Source: a virus
Direction: 5' to 3' (one strand)
UHGV virus genome: UHGV-0080127
DNA length: 22,115 bases
Shown: piece after piece, positions 3,023 through 22,115 of the stretch
Numbering within the stretch: position 1 is the stretch's first letter
Layout: each line of letters starts with the position of its first letter
Translations under genes and position numbers: made by a program
The notes under the pieces: model-generated
The model's database searches: none
What the model saw: the letters and a program-made list of their open reading frames with translations, nothing else
Told to the model about the DNA's origin: nothing

Positions 3023-3597
3023 ACCGGGCCTCCGGTTGTATCACCGCCTTTCAGGACGCCAGTATGCTGATGCGCATCAACCACGATCCCATTAGAACTC
3101 ATCGCTCCGCCGCCCTGGGTAACGCCACCATTGATCACCACTTCGCTGTTAATGCGCGTGCGGTCAGCCTCCAGTACAAACTCACTGGTTTTCATGGTGA
3201 TGTTGTCAGCGGCCTCAATGACCATTGATTTGATGCCCCTGACATACCAGCGCCCGGTGGCGGGTTCGTATTCAAACCAGCCACCGTCAGGATGTTCTGT
3301 CACGCAGGCGTCCGCCGACGTCGACGGTGGCGCGAACTGATTCGAATAGATGGCGGGTAACGCAAAGGCGGTTTCCAGATTGCCGCCCAGACTCAGCAGC
3401 ACCACCTGCTCACCTTCCGATGGTCGCCACCATGTGCGGGCATTCCCGGCACGCAGCGTCAGCCAGCTGATCCAGTTGGTTTCAAGCTCGCCCGTTTTCA
3501 CCCGGCAAAGCCAGTTTTCCCTGTCCACTTCGGTGACTACCCCAGTGCGGATCAGGTTGGTGATAAGGCGCATGATTTCGGTTAATTGTGCGTTCAT
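3019..3597 (-). CDS. V: Baseplate spike/assembly protein gpV
   Basis: 192-aa ORF, ATG at 3597; position and sequence are P2 gpV-like. Confidence 0.8.
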   Translation of the reverse strand: MNAQLTEIMRLITNLIRTGVVTEVDRENWLCRVKTGELETNWISWLTLRAGNARTWWRPSEGEQVVLLSLGGNLETAFALPAIYSNQFAPPSTSADACVTEHPDGGWFEYEPATGRWYVRGIKSMVIEAADNITMKTSEFVLEADRTRINSEVVINGGVTQGGGAMSSNGIVVDAHQHTGVLKGGDTTGGPV

Positions 3598-3643
3598 AGG
3601 GAAAGGTTGCCATCAGGGGAAGAAAGGCGGCAGTGCTGCAACT

Positions 3644-12428: not shown

Positions 12429-12435
12429 AAAAGAA

Positions 12436-12466
12436 GTGAACAAGTTGAATTTATCAGCTTGTTCAC
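12436..12466. terminator. Bidirectional hairpin terminator between convergent Q and the 12484-12952 cassette
   Basis: Perfect 9-bp inverted repeat GTGAACAAG...CTTGTTCAC with a 13-nt loop; on the minus strand it is followed by TTCTTTTTT. Confidence 0.55.
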
Positions 12467-12483
12467 TATTATCTGTATTATCT

Positions 12484-12753
12484 CTACTGCATCCGTCCGG
12501 GTAAATCGCTTTCATTGCGTAAACGCCAAGCTAACTGTTCACGATCCCAAACTATATCGTCTTTGCTAGCCTTTCTAAAATTTGCTAGCACAGTACTGCT
12601 TATAGCGTAATTACCATTCTCATTAGTTTTGATGAACTCGTCCCCAAAGTCATTGATTAGAAATTCAACAACCTCGGACTGATACAACACACCATTAGAA
12701 CGAGTGGTATTAACCATCCAGTCAACTATTTTTATCAGAGAATCATTCATCAT
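12484..12753 (-). CDS. Hypothetical protein (about 89 aa), second gene of the cos-proximal cassette
   Basis: Start placed at ATGATG (12753) overlapping the upstream gene's last codons and stop (GATGATGAATGA); AT-rich; no family recognised. Confidence 0.5.
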   Translation of the reverse strand: MMNDSLIKIVDWMVNTTRSNGVLYQSEVVEFLINDFGDEFIKTNENGNYAISSTVLANFRKASKDDIVWDREQLAWRLRNESDLPGRMQ

Positions 12754-12952
12754 CACTCTCAGCTTTTGGAACAAATAAAACTAGAGTATCTTCGTGAAAA
12801 ACTCCGCGCTGGTTCTTAGCACCAATAAACCACGTACAAACTGCCATTGTAGCCGATTGGTAGTGATCAATTACCATGATTGGACCATGTCCTGTTGCAT
12901 GTTTTACTTTCTGGCCCGGTGTATATTTTGCCACTCTCACGTCTCCTTTCAT
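12743..12952 (-). CDS. Small protein resembling the DUF2158/YodC family (69 aa)
   Basis: ATG at 12952; motifs PGQKVKH..GHGPIMVI and AVCTWF resemble my recollection of YodC-like small proteins; no clear Shine-Dalgarno, possibly a short leader. Confidence 0.5.
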   Translation of the reverse strand: MKGDVRVAKYTPGQKVKHATGHGPIMVIDHYQSATMAVCTWFIGAKNQRGVFHEDTLVLFVPKAESDDE

Positions 12953-13013
12953 GTGTAAGTTATCAATTTCAGAATATATCTACATTAATTGCAAGTAAAC
13001 ATGTTTGCGCGCG

Positions 13014-13032
13014 CTCGTATCCCCGCCACGCC
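13014..13032 (-). other. Candidate cos site (cohesive-end sequence)
   Basis: Minus strand reads GGCGTGGCGGGGATACGAG followed by CGCGCGC, closely resembling my recollection of the P2 19-nt cohesive end GGCGAGGCGGGGAAAGCAC followed by TGCGCGC; correct side and orientation relative to Q. Confidence 0.5.
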
Positions 13033-13075
13033 TGCCCGCTTTTTGTAGCGATTTTCATGCAGGTGCATGACATAA

Positions 13076-13101
13076 GCAAAAGCCCACCAGAACTGGCGGG
13101 C
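13076..13101 (-). terminator. Rho-independent terminator downstream of the 260-aa membrane protein gene
   Basis: Minus strand GCCCGCC-agttct-GGTGGGC (7-bp stem with one G-U pair) followed by TTTTGC, about 50 nt after the stop at 13150. Confidence 0.5.
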
Positions 13102-13149
13102 CTCAGCAAAAACGATCCTCAAACGATCATGCATATTCATGCGGCATAG

Positions 13150-13932
13150 TCATGCAGTGACTTTGGTCTGGTCAGGCGTAGAAAAATCTTCGAAAGATTT
13201 ATAAGTTTCAGTATCAAATATTGAAATACTCTCAACCTGATCCATTGGGATTACATGCCTAAAATGATTTAAGTTCAGTGGAGTTGAGTCTGCTGTAATA
13301 TTTTTACTAAGGTAAAGTTCATAGTAACGATGCTGCTCATGGTATCTGAGCGTATCTTTATCACGATAACCACTGATGTATGGTATGAGAGCCAGATGCT
13401 GAGTTTCCTGATGCTCCATCCGAGGAGCAGCTACGTAACCAATGTAAACTTTTCTGGATTTTAGCGTAACAAAGATGAGCTTACCTTCATCTATAGCCTG
13501 AACTAACAGTGACTCAATTCCATCTTGAGCTGCCATCTCGCGATATGCAGATTGACGAATCTCTTCGTTTTCTATTGCTCTTCGCGCATTGTTACCTTGG
13601 TCATAAGCAATAAACACCGCAAGCAGCATAGACAACACAAAGAACAATGGGTAAGACATTATCTTTACGTCTGTGAGCCATGAATAAAAGTCCACATGTA
13701 ACTTAGGCCAAAAATAACCAAAAAAATTGATAACTGAGCTTATAACTAGCAAGGTAACGAATGTAACAGCCATCAGAGTAAACCCCTGAATAGCAAACTT
13801 ACAACCATGCATAGCTACATAAAAATAGGAATTCCAACCATTACTTCTTGCTTGCCTGATGCGGGACTGGTAATGATTTTCGGTGTACCAGAACCCGCAA
13901 ACCAGGACGACCATGATAACTAAGGGTCCCAT
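13150..13932 (-). CDS. Hypothetical multi-pass membrane protein (260 aa) with a roughly 150-aa soluble C-terminal domain
   Basis: ATG at 13932 lies 3 nt after the upstream gene's TGA with AAGGA inside it (translational coupling); three hydrophobic stretches in the first ~110 aa; AT-rich codon usage unlike flanking phage genes. Confidence 0.6.
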   Translation of the reverse strand: MGPLVIMVVLVCGFWYTENHYQSRIRQARSNGWNSYFYVAMHGCKFAIQGFTLMAVTFVTLLVISSVINFFGYFWPKLHVDFYSWLTDVKIMSYPLFFVLSMLLAVFIAYDQGNNARRAIENEEIRQSAYREMAAQDGIESLLVQAIDEGKLIFVTLKSRKVYIGYVAAPRMEHQETQHLALIPYISGYRDKDTLRYHEQHRYYELYLSKNITADSTPLNLNHFRHVIPMDQVESISIFDTETYKSFEDFSTPDQTKVTA

Positions 13933-13935
13933 TCC

Positions 13936-14136
13936 TCATCCTTGTCGTTTTGCAGCCAATTCTTCCATTCTGGCACGCATTGATTCACGTACCTGCTTAT
14001 TGTTCATGTTTAAGGTCGCCGCACCATTAGCATCTGTGATAATTTTACTATTATCAGACTGTTGCACATCCTGACGGATGATATCCTGCATAATCTTACC
14101 TGGTGCAGAGAGAACTTTGCGCAGAAGTTCAGACAT
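13936..14136 (-). CDS. Hypothetical small soluble protein (66 aa), first gene of the two-gene operon
   Basis: ATG at 14136 with a strong AAGGAGG RBS (5-nt spacer); the ORF-track TTG start at 14211 is rejected because a TATAAT box lies inside that extension. Confidence 0.5.
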   Translation of the reverse strand: MSELLRKVLSAPGKIMQDIIRQDVQQSDNSKIITDANGAATLNMNNKQVRESMRARMEELAAKRQG

Positions 14137-14196
14137 ATTTTCCTCCTTATGCCTCAAACGCCACGGATTGTGGTGCATGGAAGCTGTCATCTTATG

Positions 14197-14202
14197 ATTA
14201 TA
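14197..14202 (-). promoter_or_regulatory. Candidate -10 box (TATAAT) of the promoter for the 13150-14136 operon
   Basis: Perfect TATAAT on the minus strand about 60 nt upstream of the 14136 ATG; the -35 region is weak and AT-rich. Confidence 0.35.
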
Positions 14203-14355
14203 GGACAACAAAAATACGAAACTATTCGAAGAGTGCTACGTATTAACCTATTTACATATCACCCTGCAACCAATTTATCCATAACTAACGCCTCGCACGG
14301 CTCGTTGCTCAACCTTGCGAACGGTAAAAACCAGTTTTATCGTCCGCAACGTTCC

Positions 14356-14589
14356 CTAATGTAACCAGCTGTCGTCTTCCCACACCTTCTGCATAATTTT
14401 CATCACTTGCTTCCTTTCTTCGTCCAGTTGCAGTCCGGTCAGTTCCACACCGTTAGAGCTACCTTTGCGGATACGAATTACCGTTTTGGGATACAGGGGG
14501 CGCAGATTGCGGTAAAGCTCGGATTCAAGGGCGTCCAGTGTAGACTGGCTAATCTTCTGCTCTTTATCGATCATTATTTCAATGCGCAT
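14356..14589 (-). CDS. dinI: DinI-family protein (about 77 aa)
   Basis: From the in-frame ATG at 14589 (AGGTGA RBS) the protein reads MRIEIMIDKEQKISQSTLDALESELYRNL...QKVWEDDSWLH, matching the DinI pattern (MRIEVTI...ETWESADDW). Confidence 0.75.
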   Translation of the reverse strand: MRIEIMIDKEQKISQSTLDALESELYRNLRPLYPKTVIRIRKGSSNGVELTGLQLDEERKQVMKIMQKVWEDDSWLH

Positions 14590-14599
14590 AAAAGTCACC

Positions 14600-14788
14600 T
14601 CAGCTGATGACATCCATTGAGCGGTTGTATTCGTGGGTTCTGATTTTTGCCATGAGTTCATCTGTTAGTTCAGAAACCCACTGCAAAGCCAGCCCCTTCT
14701 CTTCATCACTACACTCACTAGCCGCTACAAGCTTAAGAAAAAAATCAATGCGCTGGAGCTTCAAAGACTCCAAAAAATAGTCCTGCAT
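14600..14788 (-). CDS. Hypothetical 62-aa protein, first gene of the SOS operon (possible Tum-like antirepressor segment)
   Basis: ATG at 14788 with AGGAGGAAAG RBS, about 43 bp downstream of a LexA box; function inferred only from synteny with the 186 tum operon. Confidence 0.45.
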   Translation of the reverse strand: MQDYFLESLKLQRIDFFLKLVAASECSDEEKGLALQWVSELTDELMAKIRTHEYNRSMDVIS

Positions 14789-14828
14789 CTTTCCTCCTAT
14801 GACACCAAAGCAATACTGTATACATAAC

Positions 14829-14848
14829 CACTGTTTATATTTACAGTA
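14829..14848. promoter_or_regulatory. LexA (SOS) box CACTGTTTATATTTACAGTA overlapping a promoter for the minus-strand operon
   Basis: CTGT-N8-ACAG with an AT-rich spacer, matching the E. coli LexA consensus TACTGTATATATATACAGTA; minus-strand TTACAT and TATACT-like hexamers overlap it. Confidence 0.7.
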
Positions 14849-14940
14849 TATAATAATCTTACTGATGTAAAACGTTTTTTTACGTTCATCAGCCTGATAT
14901 GCCTGGTATTATTAAGAGCACGAATTGTTAACCCGCGTAA

Positions 14941-20010: not shown

Positions 20011-20135
20011 GATGCAACATTCCTCGTTTAATGATGATTAATCAGGACGAATACGGATCGTTTGTATTTTGTGAACACCATAAACATACGATCGCACAGT
20101 GAAATCGTCAAGATAAAAGTTCACTTGGAGTGACC
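20011..20135. promoter_or_regulatory. Lysis-lysogeny switch region (divergent promoters and candidate CI operators)
   Basis: 125-bp gap between divergent apl and cI; contains the inverted repeat GTGAAC (20071-20076) / GTTCAC (20119-20124) and two GATC sites. Confidence 0.45.
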
Positions 20136-20705
20136 ATGAATTTGGAGAAAGGCGGACGAGGCGCTATAGAGCGCATGGTAGAAGCTTATGGATTCAAGAC
20201 TCGACAGGCGTTGTGCGATCATTTAGGAATCTCTAAAAGTACACTCGCCACACGCTACATGCGTGACTCATTCCCAGCAGAATGGGTAATCCAGTGCGCC
20301 CTTGAAACAGGCAGCTCGCTTAATTGGCTCACAACCGGGCATGGTTCAAAGCAAACTTCAGGTAATACAAATACTATGGAAGTTGCTAAATATGTATTAT
20401 CTGATGGGGCCTTGTGTGAAGACGGTTTTTATATTTTCGATAGAGAATTTCTACCGTCGGCATTCAAGAATCTTTTTGTAATCACAGATAATAATTCTGA
20501 ATTTATTTGTGATAAGGAATTTGATGATATACGTGATGGTAAATGGGTAATAAGTATTGATGGCGAAATAACGATCCGTGACATTACTCGTTTACCCGGT
20601 GGAAGAATCTTCGTCGAGGGTGGAAACAGAGCCTTCGAGTGCAAGATAGAAGATGTTGAAATAATTGGGAAAATTATAAGTTTAACAATTAGGTACGTTA
20701 GGTAA
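20136..20705 (+). CDS. cI: CI immunity repressor (186 type)
   Basis: ATG at 20136 with GGAG RBS (ORF-track start 20130 is GTG); conserved block CALETGSSLNWLTTGHG resembles 186 CI (CALETGANLQWLLTGEG), as does the C-terminal ...ISIRDITRLPGG. Confidence 0.8.
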   Translation: MNLEKGGRGAIERMVEAYGFKTRQALCDHLGISKSTLATRYMRDSFPAEWVIQCALETGSSLNWLTTGHGSKQTSGNTNTMEVAKYVLSDGALCEDGFYIFDREFLPSAFKNLFVITDNNSEFICDKEFDDIRDGKWVISIDGEITIRDITRLPGGRIFVEGGNRAFECKIEDVEIIGKIISLTIRYVR

Positions 20706-20720
20706 TACCGGGAGGAAACT

Positions 20721-20912
20721 ATGCTTGGTAAGGTATTTTTTGTGGTTTTATCATGCTCTTTGTTATTAAACCCACTAACTACCTATGCTAAAAATTATCC
20801 TTGTTCTGGGAAAAAGGGAGGTGTCTCTCACTGTACCTCCGATGGAAAGTTCGTTTGCAATGATGGAACTATTAGTAAATCAAAAAAAATCTGTACTAAA
20901 AACTCGCGATAA
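20721..20912 (+). CDS. Small secreted cysteine-rich lysine-rich peptide (63-aa precursor)
   Basis: ATG at 20721 with strong GGGAGGAAACT RBS; predicted signal peptide [23 protein letters not shown], then a roughly 40-aa basic region with four Cys; co-directional with cI and int. Confidence 0.55.
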
Positions 20913-21045
20913 ATTTTGCTTTTATATCTGCGCCTAATATAACAATGAGCCGCAGGCTAACCGCAAAAGTCATATACTCACATAGCAAAAAATAGCTAAC
21001 TTCATTATGGCTTCAGTGAGATGTATGGTCGCAGGATTTCATACA

Positions 21046-21074
21046 TTGACACTGGTTATACATACAGTAAAAAT
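21046..21074 (+). promoter_or_regulatory. Candidate promoter upstream of int (TTGACA -35 plus an A-rich -10-like region)
   Basis: Perfect TTGACA at 21046-21051 followed 16-17 bp later by TAAAAA/AAAAAT, about 30 bp upstream of the int ATG. Confidence 0.3.
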
Positions 21075-21098
21075 GCTCTCTACTGGAGGGCATTTTTT

Positions 21099-22115
21099 AT
21101 GGCAGTACGAAAACTCACCACAGGAAAATGGCTTTGCGAATGTTACCCCGCCGGACGTAGTGGACGTCGTGTGCGTAAACAATTCGCCACCAAAGGCGAA
21201 GCTCTGGCTTTTGAGCGTCACACGATGGAAGAAACCGAAGCAAAGCCCTGGCTGGGCGAATCAGTGGATCGTCGGACATTGAAAGACGTGATTGAGCTAT
21301 GGTTCAAACTACATGGTAAATCTCTGACAGCTGGGCAGCATGTCTATGACAAACTGCTGTTGATGGTTGACGCTCTGGGCAATCCCCTTGCAACTGATCT
21401 AACCTCTAAAATGTTTGCCCACTATCGAGATAAACGCCTGACAGGTGAGATCTACTTCAGCGAGAAATGGAAGAAAGGAGCAAGCCCGGTCACCATTAAC
21501 CTGGAGCAAAGCTATCTAAGTAGTGTTTTTAGCGAACTATCCCGCCTGGGCGAATGGTCGTATCCGAACCCACTGGAGAACATGCGAAAATTCACCATCG
21601 CAGAAAAAGAGATGGCATGGCTTACCCATGAGCAGATTGTTGAACTGCTGGCTGATTGCAAACGTCAGGACCCAATTCTGGCACTGGTAGTCAAGATATG
21701 CCTAAGCACAGGCGCACGCTGGCGAGAAGCAATAAATCTTACCCGCTCGCAAGTGACCAAATACCGAATTACCTTTGTAAGAACGAAGGGGAAGAAAAAC
21801 AGAAGCATCCCTATCAGTAAAGAGCTTTACGAAGAGATCATGGCGCTTGATGGGTTCAATTTCTTTACAGACTGCTATTTTCAATTTTTATCCGTGATGG
21901 AAAAAACGTCTATCGTGCTCCCTCGCGGTCAACTGACACACGTTCTGCGCCATACGTTTGCGGCGCACTTCATGATGTCGGGTGGAAATATCCTTGCTTT
22001 GCAAAAAATCCTCGGACATCACGATATAAAAATGACTATGCGCTATGCCCATTTAGCACCCGATCATCTTGAGACGGCTCTGAGATTCAACCCCCTCGCA
22101 ACGCTAGAAGTGTGA
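21099..22115 (+). CDS. int: Tyrosine recombinase / integrase (P2/186 Int family)
   Basis: ATG at 21099 with GGAGGG RBS (the ORF-track upstream extension is unlikely); C-terminal catalytic residues in ...HVLRHTFA...MRYAHLAPDH...; stop at the window end. Confidence 0.9.
   Translation: MAVRKLTTGKWLCECYPAGRSGRRVRKQFATKGEALAFERHTMEETEAKPWLGESVDRRTLKDVIELWFKLHGKSLTAGQHVYDKLLLMVDALGNPLATDLTSKMFAHYRDKRLTGEIYFSEKWKKGASPVTINLEQSYLSSVFSELSRLGEWSYPNPLENMRKFTIAEKEMAWLTHEQIVELLADCKRQDPILALVVKICLSTGARWREAINLTRSQVTKYRITFVRTKGKKNRSIPISKELYEEIMALDGFNFFTDCYFQFLSVMEKTSIVLPRGQLTHVLRHTFAAHFMMSGGNILALQKILGHHDIKMTMRYAHLAPDHLETALRFNPLATLEV

What the first reader, a model, noticed from the sequence alone, without database searches (positions are those of the whole stretch)
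20721..20912. Small secreted cysteine-rich basic peptide encoded between cI and int (lysogenic-conversion candidate)
A 63-aa ORF with a strong RBS lies 15 bp after cI, in the same direction as cI and int, so it is probably expressed from the lysogenic transcript in the prophage state. It has a classic signal peptide and a roughly 40-aa lysine-rich mature region with four cysteines. A prophage-encoded exported mini-protein of this kind could act in the periplasm on envelope stress, receptor masking or lysozyme inhibition, or as a bacteriocin-like peptide. I recognise no family for it.
Basis: partly seen in the sequence, partly recalled or inferred. Interest (0 to 1): 0.6.

Follow-up and report, generated by a model that had tools for sequence, protein, structure and literature searches.

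The report
Prophage copy of periplasmic mini-protein YdcA
The ORF is a real, strongly conserved gene for a small exported, disulfide-bonded, basic protein of the already catalogued but functionally unknown YdcA family, carried as accessory cargo behind the repressor gene of a 186/P2-like E. coli prophage.

Summary
A 63-codon ORF (20721-20912) with a GGGAGG ribosome-binding site starts 15 nt after cI. It encodes a Sec-type signal peptide and a 40-residue mature peptide with 8 Lys and 4 Cys. The claim of "no family" is wrong. The ORF passes the curated NCBIfam cutoff for YdcA (NF007463) and matches PHROG 6000. RefSeq names the protein at this position in a 99.7%-identical prophage copy "YdcA family protein"; BL21(DE3) and REL606 carry the same accession. 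The gene is under strong purifying selection. The two main prophage haplotypes differ by 11 synonymous changes and 1 conservative change. The cI-int interval is a cargo slot: sister prophages carry a KAP NTPase (PADLOC PDC-S20) or other genes there. Haemophilus phage HP2 and Yersinia prophages carry a YdcA homologue in the same slot. The published function is unknown. My searches gave three leads. The domain is fused N-terminally to three unrelated secreted nuclease families. It occurs in tandem arrays. Its only solved relative, with moderate statistics, is Dis2 of the Legionella Dot/Icm secretion system. I infer a stand-alone periplasmic binding module, most likely for nucleic acid or another polyanion, co-expressed with cI. 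The mechanism is unproven. Interest is moderate.

The parts
20136..20705 (+). cI repressor gene, with the start as annotated in RefSeq copies (an alternative GTG lies at 20130). It is the upstream gene of the presumed lysogenic transcript.
   Evidence: Pfam Phage_CI_repr 2.1e-32 and Phage_CI_C 8.5e-27. RefSeq annotation of a 99.7% identical copy.
20710..20715 (+). Shine-Dalgarno sequence GGGAGG, 5 nt before the ATG of the YdcA-family ORF.
   Evidence: Read directly from the sequence.
20721..20912 (+). YdcA-family gene, 63 codons plus stop.
   Evidence: ORF list. NCBIfam NF007463 116 bits against a cutoff of 93. PHROG 6000 4.6e-34. RefSeq product 'YdcA family protein' WP_001321204.1 at this position in a 99.7% identical copy. 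Purifying selection.
20721..20789 (+). Predicted Sec signal peptide (residues 1-23), with cleavage after T-Y-A.
   Evidence: Basic n-region, hydrophobic core and an A at -1 that is invariant in the family alignment while the leader sequence itself is not conserved. The E. coli K-12 YdcA is described as having a signal sequence (PMC11340327). SignalP was not run.
20790..20909 (+). Mature 40-aa peptide [40 protein letters not shown]. The core domain is PC...C (residues 27-58) with 4 invariant Cys.
   Evidence: Invariant columns P27 C28 S29 K32 G33 G34 C38 F44 C46 D48 G49 S52 S54 K55 C58. A 132-sequence domain alignment. AF2 pLDDT of 84-92 over residues 31-60. Charge and pI.
21046..21074 (+). Promoter-like site TTGACA-17-AAAAAT upstream of int. 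Its spacer holds a LexA-box-like palindrome CACTGGTTATACATACAGTA (21050-21069).
   Evidence: Promoter scan, 10 of 12 matches. The LexA consensus scan gave 4 mismatches, with 0.003 such sites expected per shuffled window. The block is conserved upstream of int whatever the cargo, and also in Yersinia. Function is not shown.
21069..21098 (+). 13-bp hairpin followed by a U. It ends 1 nt before the int ATG and contains the int Shine-Dalgarno sequence (GGAGGG, 21085-21090). It is the likely end or silencer of the cI-ydcA transcript.
   Evidence: RNA fold -19.1 kcal/mol, z = -3.5, 0 of 200 shuffles as stable. The stem is kept with arm changes in sister prophages (GCCCTC/GAGGGC in L006 and L173). The simple terminator scan did not flag it.
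21099..22115 (+). Integrase gene (tyrosine recombinase), at the prophage end next to host rcdA/ybjJ in complete genomes.
   Evidence: Pfam Int_N and Phage_integrase. RefSeq context.

Best explanation
The ORF encodes a prophage-borne paralogue of E. coli YdcA.

Shown or strongly supported:
- It is a real, selected gene.
- It has a Sec-type leader and a 40-residue mature part built on a four-cysteine core, PCSGKKGG[VI]SHC-x(2-3)-GKF[VI]C[NK]DG[ST]xSxSKxxC. This core is 74-87% identical in chromosomes, plasmids and phages of Escherichia, Yersinia, Haemophilus, Moraxella, Acinetobacter and Neisseria.
- It occupies a cargo slot between cI and int of 186-like Peduoviridae.

Inferred:
- It is transcribed with cI from the lysogenic promoter as a two-gene unit that ends at the hairpin just before int. 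It would therefore be made continuously in the lysogen.
- After export, DsbA-type oxidation gives two disulfides. The 4.3-kDa, +7 peptide then stays in the periplasm.

Mechanism I commit to (inferred, about 40% for the ligand and lower for the benefit):
- The YdcA domain is a small ligand-binding module for a polymeric polyanion, most likely nucleic acid.
- The same module sits, behind a signal peptide and before a linker, at the N-terminus of three structurally unrelated secreted nucleases. It is also found in tandem arrays.
- As a stand-alone, abundant periplasmic copy it would bind that ligand without cutting it.
- The most plausible pay-off for a prophage is interference with incoming foreign DNA (superinfecting phage, transformation, conjugation). 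A second possibility is protection of the envelope under acid or organic-acid stress, as reported for the chromosomal paralogue.
For: Family membership:
- NF007463 116 bits.
- PHROG 6000.
- PF27300 on the 97%-identical P0001.
- RefSeq name.

Selection:
- Core comparison with 27 homologues.
- Prophage haplotypes.

Export:
- Leaders diverge but keep signal-peptide features, and the domain starts 2-3 residues after the predicted cleavage site.

Cargo slot:
- Sister prophages at the same att site carry other genes between cI and int. These are a KAP NTPase matching PADLOC PDC-S20 at 1.3e-173, a 314-aa ORF, YdcA plus KAP, a 558-aa ATPase and a 349-aa ORF.
- The integrase-primase interval is listed as a minor P2 defence hotspot (PMC13586616).

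Same slot elsewhere:
- In HP2 an unannotated 60-aa homologue overlaps the cI stop codon in the annotated pL operon.
- Yersinia prophages have CI upstream and integrase downstream of their copy.

Transcript architecture:
-.

Binding-module idea:
- Fusions to SNase (4.8e-24), Endonuclease_NS (8e-33; at least six proteins: P0193, P0167, L134, P0325, P0338, P0339) and PLDc_2 (5e-19).
- Nucleases account for 5 of the 13 member-to-family matches (7 families) among the 70 longer relatives.
- Tandem two- and three-copy proteins exist.
- The gene next to the HP2 homologue is a secreted OB-fold (tRNA_anti-like, 2.8e-13).
- The mature peptide has net charge +7.

Chromosomal paralogue:
- A ydcA deletion made E. 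coli W sensitive to 300 mM 3-hydroxypropionate. The gene is described as acid-induced (PMC7642389).
Against: - No experiment on any family member shows a ligand. The literature calls YdcA 'unknown function'.
- Basic charge is not a family constant. Domain net charge ranges from -2 to +8 (mean +3.4), and the nuclease-fused copies carry only 0 to +4. DNA binding by charge alone is therefore not supported.
- The module could equally be an anchor or localisation tag.
- The neighbours of 80 genomic copies are heterogeneous and give no functional partner.
- There is no PADLOC hit.
- Transcription from pL, cleavage of the leader and disulfide formation were not tested. The simple terminator scan did not call the hairpin.
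- In Moraxella and Acinetobacter phages the gene lies among late genes rather than next to the repressor. Lysogen-specific expression is therefore not general.
Confidence: 0.45

Rival explanations
1. It is an envelope-stress or acid-tolerance factor. The prophage copy does what the chromosomal YdcA is suggested to do, protecting the periplasm or outer membrane under acid or organic-acid stress. It could do so by binding LPS, phospholipid head groups or peptidoglycan, with no link to nucleic acid. The prophage gains by making its host fitter.
For: - A ydcA deletion in E. coli W grows poorly in 300 mM 3-hydroxypropionate. ydcA is reported as induced at pH 5 under YdcI (PMC7642389).
- An RpoS-holoenzyme SELEX site lies in the rydC-ydcA spacer (PMC5493296).
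- The core is 77% identical to the K-12-type YdcA core (L140).
- The peptide is polycationic and periplasmic.
Against: - The phenotype comes from one study of the chromosomal gene. A yieP deletion overrode it, and no mechanism was given.
- This reading does not explain why the only enzymes fused to the module are nucleases.
- It does not explain the spread on phages of very different hosts.
Confidence: 0.2
2. It is a Dis2-like docking protein. The peptide binds the periplasmic face of an outer-membrane-spanning machine or receptor, such as a secretin, a T4SS or T2SS, or a phage receptor. It thereby masks or alters that structure, giving superinfection exclusion at adsorption or entry, as each lobe of Dis2 does structurally in the Dot/Icm outer-membrane cap.
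For: - Dis2 (Lpg0823, 7muc/7mud chain AN) is the top PDB match in three sequence searches (E 2.2e-4, 1.3e-4 and 0.014).
- Dis2 is also the top Foldseek match of the AF2 model (prob 0.96, 38% identity over 39 columns).
- hhalign of the domain profile against Dis2 orthologues gives 81% probability, P = 1.2e-5.
- A Dis2 orthologue fragment carries the same precomputed Pfam PF27300.
- Dis2 is made of two similar disulfide-pinned lobes under the outer membrane (PMC8486379).
- UniRef labels the protein 'Conjugal transfer protein', an unverified label.
Against: - The function of Dis2 itself is unknown and its deletion has only subtle effects (PMC12716638).
- No T4SS genes lie near the YdcA genes sampled.
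- No target is known.
Confidence: 0.15
3. It is a secreted antimicrobial peptide or bacteriocin, or an inhibitor of a protease or lysozyme.
For: - It is small, cationic and Cys-rich.
- It has weak sequence resemblance to plant Pin-II proteinase inhibitors (E 0.06-1).
Against: - The Pin-II hits are not significant, and those domains have 8 Cys rather than 4.
- The leader is Sec-type, not a double-glycine leader.
- There is no immunity, processing or export gene beside it in the window or in 80 other loci.
- There is no Pfam match to Ivy, MliC or Pli families.
- The family is a harmless single chromosomal gene in E. coli K-12.
Confidence: 0.04
4. It is a chance ORF or a decaying remnant with no function.
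For: - It is very short.
- It was unannotated in the older REL606 annotation (inferred from the new-style locus tag) and is unannotated in the HP2 and Ab11510-phi records.
Against: - The curated HMM score is above cutoff.
- The exhaustive search found 460 50%-identity cluster representatives.
- Synonymous sites are saturated with 74-87% amino-acid identity.
- The haplotypes differ by 11 synonymous changes against 1 non-synonymous change.
- All 80 copies are intact.
Confidence: 0.01

Closest known systems
E. coli K-12 YdcA (57 aa, predicted periplasmic, function unknown; NCBIfam PRK10040 group, Pfam PF27300)
   Same: Both have a signal peptide followed by a four-Cys core with the same motif. 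Core identity is 77%. The window protein passes the curated cutoff of the sister equivalog NF007463.
   Different: The window copy is prophage cargo behind cI. The K-12 gene lies between rydC/cybB and hokB. The window protein scores below cutoff on the K-12-type model NF007462 (68 against 118 bits). It has a different leader, a longer basic C-terminal tail (TKNSR) and a higher net charge.
Unannotated ORF of Haemophilus phages HP2 and S2 between cI and orf1(S)/int (L002 3420..3602)
   Same: It sits in the same slot directly after cI in the lysogenic (pL) operon of a P2-like phage. It has the same domain, with 81% core identity.
   Different: Its start overlaps the cI stop codon instead of following a 15-nt gap. 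It is followed by a secreted OB-fold protein before int. The host is naturally transformable.
Dis2 (Lpg0823), outer-membrane-cap subunit of the Legionella Dot/Icm type IVB secretion system (PDB 7MUC/7MUD chain AN)
   Same: Each Dis2 lobe carries the motif C-x3-GG[VI]-x-x-C...G-x-[LV]VCN[DN]G-x-x-S. Like YdcA it is a Sec-exported, disulfide-locked small domain located in the periplasm under the outer membrane.
   Different: Dis2 has two fused lobes with 10 Cys and is not basic (+2 and -3). It is part of a 13-fold secretion-machine ring. The window protein is a single free domain with no T4SS nearby. The homology statistics are moderate only. Published work calls Dis2 Legionella-specific.
N-terminal modules of secreted nucleases (YdcA domain fused to SNase, Endonuclease_NS or PLD-type Nuc). 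By analogy, from memory only, the Excalibur domain on Bacillus YokF/YncB nucleases.
   Same: The domain is the same and sits directly after the signal peptide.
   Different: The window protein has no catalytic domain. The analogy with Excalibur is recalled, not tested.
Prophage lysogenic-conversion and exclusion proteins of the envelope (Cor and Llp lipoproteins, P1 Sim, lambda Bor), recalled from general knowledge
   Same: Like them it is a small exported protein encoded by a temperate phage and plausibly made in the lysogen.
   Different: There is no sequence relationship. It is not a lipoprotein: the leader Cys12 lies too close to the N-terminus (position 12) to serve as a lipobox cysteine, and the equivalent leader position is not conserved as Cys across homologues. 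No exclusion phenotype is known.

Membership tests
YdcA family (NCBIfam NF007463 / PRK10040.1-2; Pfam PF27300; PHROG 6000) | The whole-protein HMM score is above the curated cutoff. | tested here: met
   NF007463 116.1 bits against a cutoff of 93, E 4.2e-34. PHROG 6000 4.6e-34. PF27300.1 is precomputed on the 97%-identical cluster representative P0001. The local Pfam copy lacks this model.
YdcA family | An N-terminal signal peptide is followed within 2-3 residues by the domain. | tested here: met
   Alignment A1 has an invariant Ala at -1 and variable hydrophobic leaders. 153 of 173 relatives pass a simple hydrophobic-core and basic n-region test. No SignalP run.
YdcA family | Four invariant Cys and the motif PCSGxKGG...FxCxDG..SxSK..C. 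| tested here: met
   Invariant columns in A1 and in the 132-sequence domain alignment A5.
Dis2 (Lpg0823) of the Dot/Icm T4SS | Two tandem lobes pinned by five disulfides. | tested here: not met
   The window protein has a single domain with 4 Cys. Dis2 architecture is taken from PMC8486379.
Dis2 (Lpg0823) of the Dot/Icm T4SS | Encoded in a genome with, and assembled into, a type IVB secretion system. | tested here: not met
   The window is a P2/186-like prophage. No T4SS families appear among the neighbours of 80 loci.
Dis2 (Lpg0823) of the Dot/Icm T4SS | Lobe-level sequence and fold homology. | tested here: inconclusive
Known anti-phage defence systems (PADLOC-DB 2.0) | Match to a defence-protein model. 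| tested here: not met
   0 families for the ORF. The KAP NTPase in the same slot of a sister prophage hits PDC-S20 at 1.3e-173.
Prophage exclusion lipoproteins (Cor/Llp type) | A lipobox with the Cys at +1 of the mature protein. | tested here: not met
   The only leader Cys (C12) lies too close to the N-terminus (position 12) to serve as a lipobox cysteine, and the equivalent leader position is not conserved as Cys across homologues. In a crude count, 60 of 173 family leaders contain some Cys.
Prophage exclusion / lysogenic-conversion genes in general | Expression in the lysogen and a host phenotype. | not testable with these tools
   Only promoter, terminator and hairpin inference is available.
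Class II bacteriocins / microcins | A double-glycine or dedicated leader, plus adjacent immunity and export genes. | tested here: not met
   The leader is Sec-type. The neighbours are cI and int. No recurrent partner appears in 80 loci.
Pin-II (potato type II) proteinase inhibitors | A repeat of about 50 aa with 8 Cys, and significant sequence similarity. | tested here: not met
   E values are 0.06-1 only, and the window protein has 4 Cys rather than 8.
Periplasmic lysozyme inhibitors (Ivy, MliC/PliC, PliG) | Pfam family match. | tested here: not met
   No such hit at E <= 1.

The most novel reading that the evidence does not exclude
The YdcA/PF27300 domain is a previously unrecognised periplasmic nucleic-acid-binding module. 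It would be shared by secreted nucleases, by the Dis2 subunit of the Dot/Icm secretion machine and by free mini-proteins. Temperate phages of E. coli, Yersinia, Haemophilus, Moraxella and Acinetobacter would carry free copies to intercept or block foreign DNA in the periplasm. That would be a new, very small class of superinfection-exclusion, anti-transformation or anti-conjugation factor, expressed with the repressor.
Probability: 0.15. Interest if true: 0.7.

Novelty: new member of a known kind. Interest (0 to 1): 0.4.

Why it matters
YdcA is one of the remaining uncharacterised small exported proteins of E. coli. The prophage copy is present in about one in nine complete E. coli genomes, including the laboratory strains BL21(DE3) and REL606, so experiments are easy to set up.

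The survey here gives the family its first functional leads:
- repeated fusion to three unrelated secreted nucleases;
- tandem arrays;
- a probable relationship to Dis2, which the literature treats as Legionella-specific;
- recurrent carriage in the repressor-proximal cargo slot of P2-like phages of distant hosts.

If the domain binds DNA in the periplasm, that would add a new module to the biology of DNA uptake and exclusion. If not, the gene remains an ordinary moron of unknown function.

Tried and rejected
- **Megablast of 20100-21100 against deposited phages:** no match. The immunity region is known only from prophages. The cI protein is under 60% identical to nearly all phage records.
- **Local Pfam:** no significant hit, because the copy lacks PF27300.
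- **PADLOC:** no hit.
- **Rfam on the whole window:** nothing.
- **Foldseek against BFVD viral structures:** nothing meaningful.
- **afdb50 library:** not available.
- **Neighbourhood analysis of 80 species-level loci:** no conserved partner gene. Only lineage-specific blocks appeared: CI plus integrase in 5 loci and cytochrome b561 in 5.
- **Plasmid contexts (Acinetobacter p3ABAYE, a Rhizobium plasmid):** no T4SS linkage.
- **Literature:** nothing on the family beyond 'unknown function', one 3-HP phenotype and expression lists. The genes called 'ydcA' on F-like plasmids and in the gonococcal island are name coincidences.
- **Lipoprotein reading:** rejected. Cys12 is not in a lipobox context, and that leader position is not conserved as Cys in homologues.
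- **Pin-II inhibitor and LDL-receptor-repeat resemblances:** rejected as Cys-rich background.
- **Charge-only argument for DNA binding:** weakened by the family's charge spread.

Full report
**1. Observation**

- The window is the right half of a 186/P2-like prophage. It runs from tail, lysis, head, terminase and portal genes through the replication gene, dam, cII, an apl/cox-like gene and cI to int.
- In complete genomes the prophage lies next to rcdA/ybjJ.
- The ORF described is present at 20721..20912 (+), 63 codons. GGGAGG lies 5 nt before the ATG, and the ORF starts 15 nt after the cI stop codon.
- Pfam confirms cI and int.
- The product has a typical Sec leader, [23 protein letters not shown].
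- The mature part is 40 residues with 8 Lys, 1 Arg, 2 Asp and 4 Cys. Its net charge is +7, its pI 9.6 and its mass 4.26 kDa.

**2. It is a real gene**

- The 31-codon core was compared with 27 homologues from Enterobacterales, Neisseria, Comamonas, and Haemophilus, Moraxella and Acinetobacter phages. Synonymous differences are saturated (pS 0.7-1.2), while non-synonymous differences are 0.07-0.18.
- In 80 IMG/VR copies of this prophage type the ORF is always intact. The two main haplotypes differ at 12 of 192 nt: 11 at third positions and synonymous, and one K24R change.
- The cI-ORF-int block is present with at least 80% coverage in 590 of 5426 complete E. coli genomes.
- BL21(DE3) and REL606 both carry it. 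In BL21(DE3) the prophage is otherwise decayed, but cI, the ORF and int are intact.

**3. It has a family**

- RefSeq calls the protein at this position in a 99.7%-identical copy (WP_001321204.1, also in BL21(DE3) and REL606) 'YdcA family protein' in newer annotations.
- NCBIfam NF007463 scores 116 bits against a cutoff of 93.
- PHROG 6000 scores 4.6e-34, with function unknown.
- The large protein collection carries precomputed Pfam PF27300 on it and on its relatives.
- The local Pfam copy does not hold that model, which explains the empty Pfam result.
- The family is uncharacterised. E. coli K-12 YdcA is a 57-aa predicted periplasmic protein of unknown function next to rydC (PMC11340327).
- One study found a ydcA deletion of E. 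coli W sensitive to 300 mM 3-hydroxypropionate and cites acid induction (PMC7642389).
- Other papers only list the gene in expression tables.
- No paper mentions PF27300, PRK10040 or the accession.

**4. Distribution**

- An exhaustive profile search found 460 representatives of 50%-identity clusters at E <= 1e-3, of which 268 are at 1e-10 or better.
- A species-level genome scan found 229 loci in alpha-, beta- and gammaproteobacteria.
- 505 IMG/VR viral contigs encode a relative.
- 58 plasmids do, mostly in Acinetobacter and Rhizobium.
- Among deposited phages the mature domain is mostly 73-80% identical to the query (one hit, Pseudomonas phage Y12, at 55%). The hits are 20 Moraxella catarrhalis phage records, 3 Acinetobacter, 3 Haemophilus (two HP2 records and one S2) and 1 Pseudomonas.
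- Leaders differ completely between lineages, while the core is nearly invariant.
- Neighbouring genes are heterogeneous. The gene behaves as a self-contained mobile unit.

**5. The slot**

- In HP2 an unannotated 60-codon homologue starts on the last base of the cI stop codon. It lies inside the annotated pL lysogenic operon and is followed by orf1(S) and int.
- Yersinia prophages also have CI upstream and integrase downstream of their copy.
- Sister E. coli prophages at the same att site carry other genes between cI and int. These include a KAP P-loop NTPase that matches PADLOC candidate system PDC-S20 at 1.3e-173, a 314-aa ORF, a YdcA homologue plus the KAP NTPase, and a second CI-like gene plus KAP.
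- Phage vB_EcoM-813R9 has a 558-aa ATPase in that position, and Klebsiella phage 4LV2017 a 349-aa ORF.
- A 2026 survey lists the integrase-primase interval as a minor defence hotspot of P2-like phages (PMC13586616).
- The ORF is therefore accessory cargo in a recognised variable position.

**6. Expression architecture (inferred)**

- The scan found no plus-strand terminator between cI and the ORF.
- Homology shared with prophages that carry other cargo starts at about 21036-21041.
- From there to the int ATG lies a conserved block with three elements:
  - a promoter-like site, TTGACA-17-AAAAAT;
  - a LexA-box-like palindrome in its spacer, with 4 mismatches to the consensus and 0.003 such sites expected by chance;
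  - a 13-bp hairpin followed by a U that ends 1 nt before the int ATG and contains its Shine-Dalgarno sequence (-19 kcal/mol, z = -3.5).
- In other prophages the stem is kept through changes in its arms.
- My reading has two parts. First, pL makes a cI-ydcA message that is stopped, or has int silenced, at the hairpin. Second, int has its own, possibly SOS-controlled, promoter whose transcripts begin inside the left arm and so leave the ribosome-binding site free. This is inference only.

**7. Functional leads**

(a) Domain fusions.
- Among the best 150 representatives, and in a second search, the module sits directly behind a signal peptide and before a low-complexity linker in proteins with different C-terminal domains.
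- The C-terminal domain is SNase (4.8e-24), Endonuclease_NS (8e-33; at least six proteins) or a PLD-type nuclease domain (5e-19).
- These are three unrelated nuclease folds. Nucleases are the only enzymes seen among the fusions.
- Other partners are VasL, DUF4124, the basic PBCV adaptor motif and lysine-rich repeats.

(b) Tandem arrays of two or three copies exist.

(c) In HP2 the next gene encodes a secreted OB-fold protein (tRNA_anti-like, 2.8e-13).

(d) The only solved relative is Dis2 (Lpg0823) of the Legionella Dot/Icm outer-membrane cap.
- Sequence searches give E = 2.2e-4, 1.3e-4 and, with a domain-only profile, 0.014, where LDL-receptor repeats score nearly as well.
- hhalign gives 46% and 81% probability.
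- Foldseek of the AF2 model (pLDDT 84-92 over the core) puts Dis2 first at probability 0.96.
- A Dis2 orthologue fragment carries PF27300.
- I regard the relationship as probable, not proven.

**8. Interpretation**

- Fusion to three unrelated nucleases is most simply explained if the module binds their common substrate. Tandem arrays fit a polymeric ligand.
- Against this, net charge varies widely in the family (-2 to +8) and the nuclease-fused copies are only weakly basic. An anchoring or localisation role, or docking on an envelope machine as in Dis2, is therefore a serious alternative.
- For the prophage copy I commit to a free periplasmic binding module co-expressed with cI. I put nucleic acid as the ligand at roughly 40%. 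The benefit would be either interference with incoming DNA or stress protection.
- The rival readings (stress factor, Dis2-like docking or receptor masking, antimicrobial or inhibitor, chance ORF) are scored in the Rival explanations section.

**9. Novelty and score**

- The object is a member of a catalogued family and is annotated as such in RefSeq, so it is not new as a sequence.
- The following appear not to be in the searchable literature: its recurrent place behind the repressor in P2-like phages of distant hosts, the nuclease fusions and the Dis2 link.
- Interest is moderate (0.4). The reasons are a tractable, widespread, unexplained small protein with testable leads, but no demonstrated mechanism.

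Noticed in passing
window 21046-21098: int has its own promoter-like site (TTGACA-17-AAAAAT). A LexA-box-like palindrome, CACTGGTTATACATACAGTA, sits in the spacer. A conserved 13-bp hairpin followed by a U comes next; it buries the int Shine-Dalgarno sequence and ends 1 nt before the ATG. The block travels with int whatever cargo lies upstream, and it is also present in Yersinia prophages. It suggests SOS-controlled int expression insulated from the cI transcript.
   Followed up: partly
window 14829-14848, with ORFs 14600..14788 (-) and 14356..14661 (-): This is a second and better LexA-box-like site (3 mismatches). It lies upstream of a 62-aa ORF and an overlapping DinI-like ORF (PF06183, 1.3e-22). 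The arrangement resembles the LexA-controlled tum antirepressor locus of phage 186; that comparison is from memory.
   Followed up: partly
window 12430-14940: The portal-primase interval, the main defence hotspot of P2-like phages, carries a 260-aa multi-pass membrane protein (13150..13932 -) with no Pfam or PADLOC match. It also carries a DUF6953 protein (12484..12774 -) and a DUF2158-like small protein (12743..12952 -). This cargo is of unknown function.
   Followed up: partly
L002 (Haemophilus phage HP2, NC_003315.1) 3420..3602; L004 (Acinetobacter phage Ab11510-phi) 3917..4102: Clear YdcA-family genes (60 and 61 aa) are not annotated in these phage records. The HP2 gene overlaps the cI stop codon.
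   Followed up: yes
L002 3612..4376 (HP2 orf1(S)): The gene after the HP2 YdcA homologue encodes a protein with a signal peptide and a tRNA_anti-like OB-fold domain (PF12869, 2.8e-13). It is a second exported protein with a nucleic-acid-binding-type fold in the same lysogenic operon.
   Followed up: partly
L005 1153..2484, L007 3255..4586, L008 4106..5623 (sister E. coli prophages): The cI-int slot holds a KAP-family P-loop NTPase that matches PADLOC candidate defence system PDC-S20 (1.3e-173). In L007 it sits together with a YdcA homologue.
   Followed up: partly
P0065 (197 aa, three YdcA domains): The precomputed Pfam annotation lists PF12587 (DUF3761) beside PF27300. DUF3761 has a similar C-x-DG-x-x-S...GGV motif in a different order, which hints at a relationship or circular permutation between the two families.
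   Followed up: no
L170 (BL21(DE3), NC_012971.2 872014-876014): The BL21(DE3) copy of this prophage has pseudogenised cII and replication genes but keeps cI, the YdcA-family gene and int intact.
   Followed up: partly
cluster of the window protein: UniRef entries label this protein 'Conjugal transfer protein'. No basis for the label was found. It is curious given the possible relationship to the T4SS subunit Dis2.
   Followed up: no
L124, L137, L144 (Providencia chromosomes): YdcA domains are followed by 150-200 residues of lysine-rich KEKATKA-type repeats. A roughly 132-aa enterobacterial subfamily ends in a conserved Cys-containing tail (…[23 protein letters not shown]).
   Followed up: no
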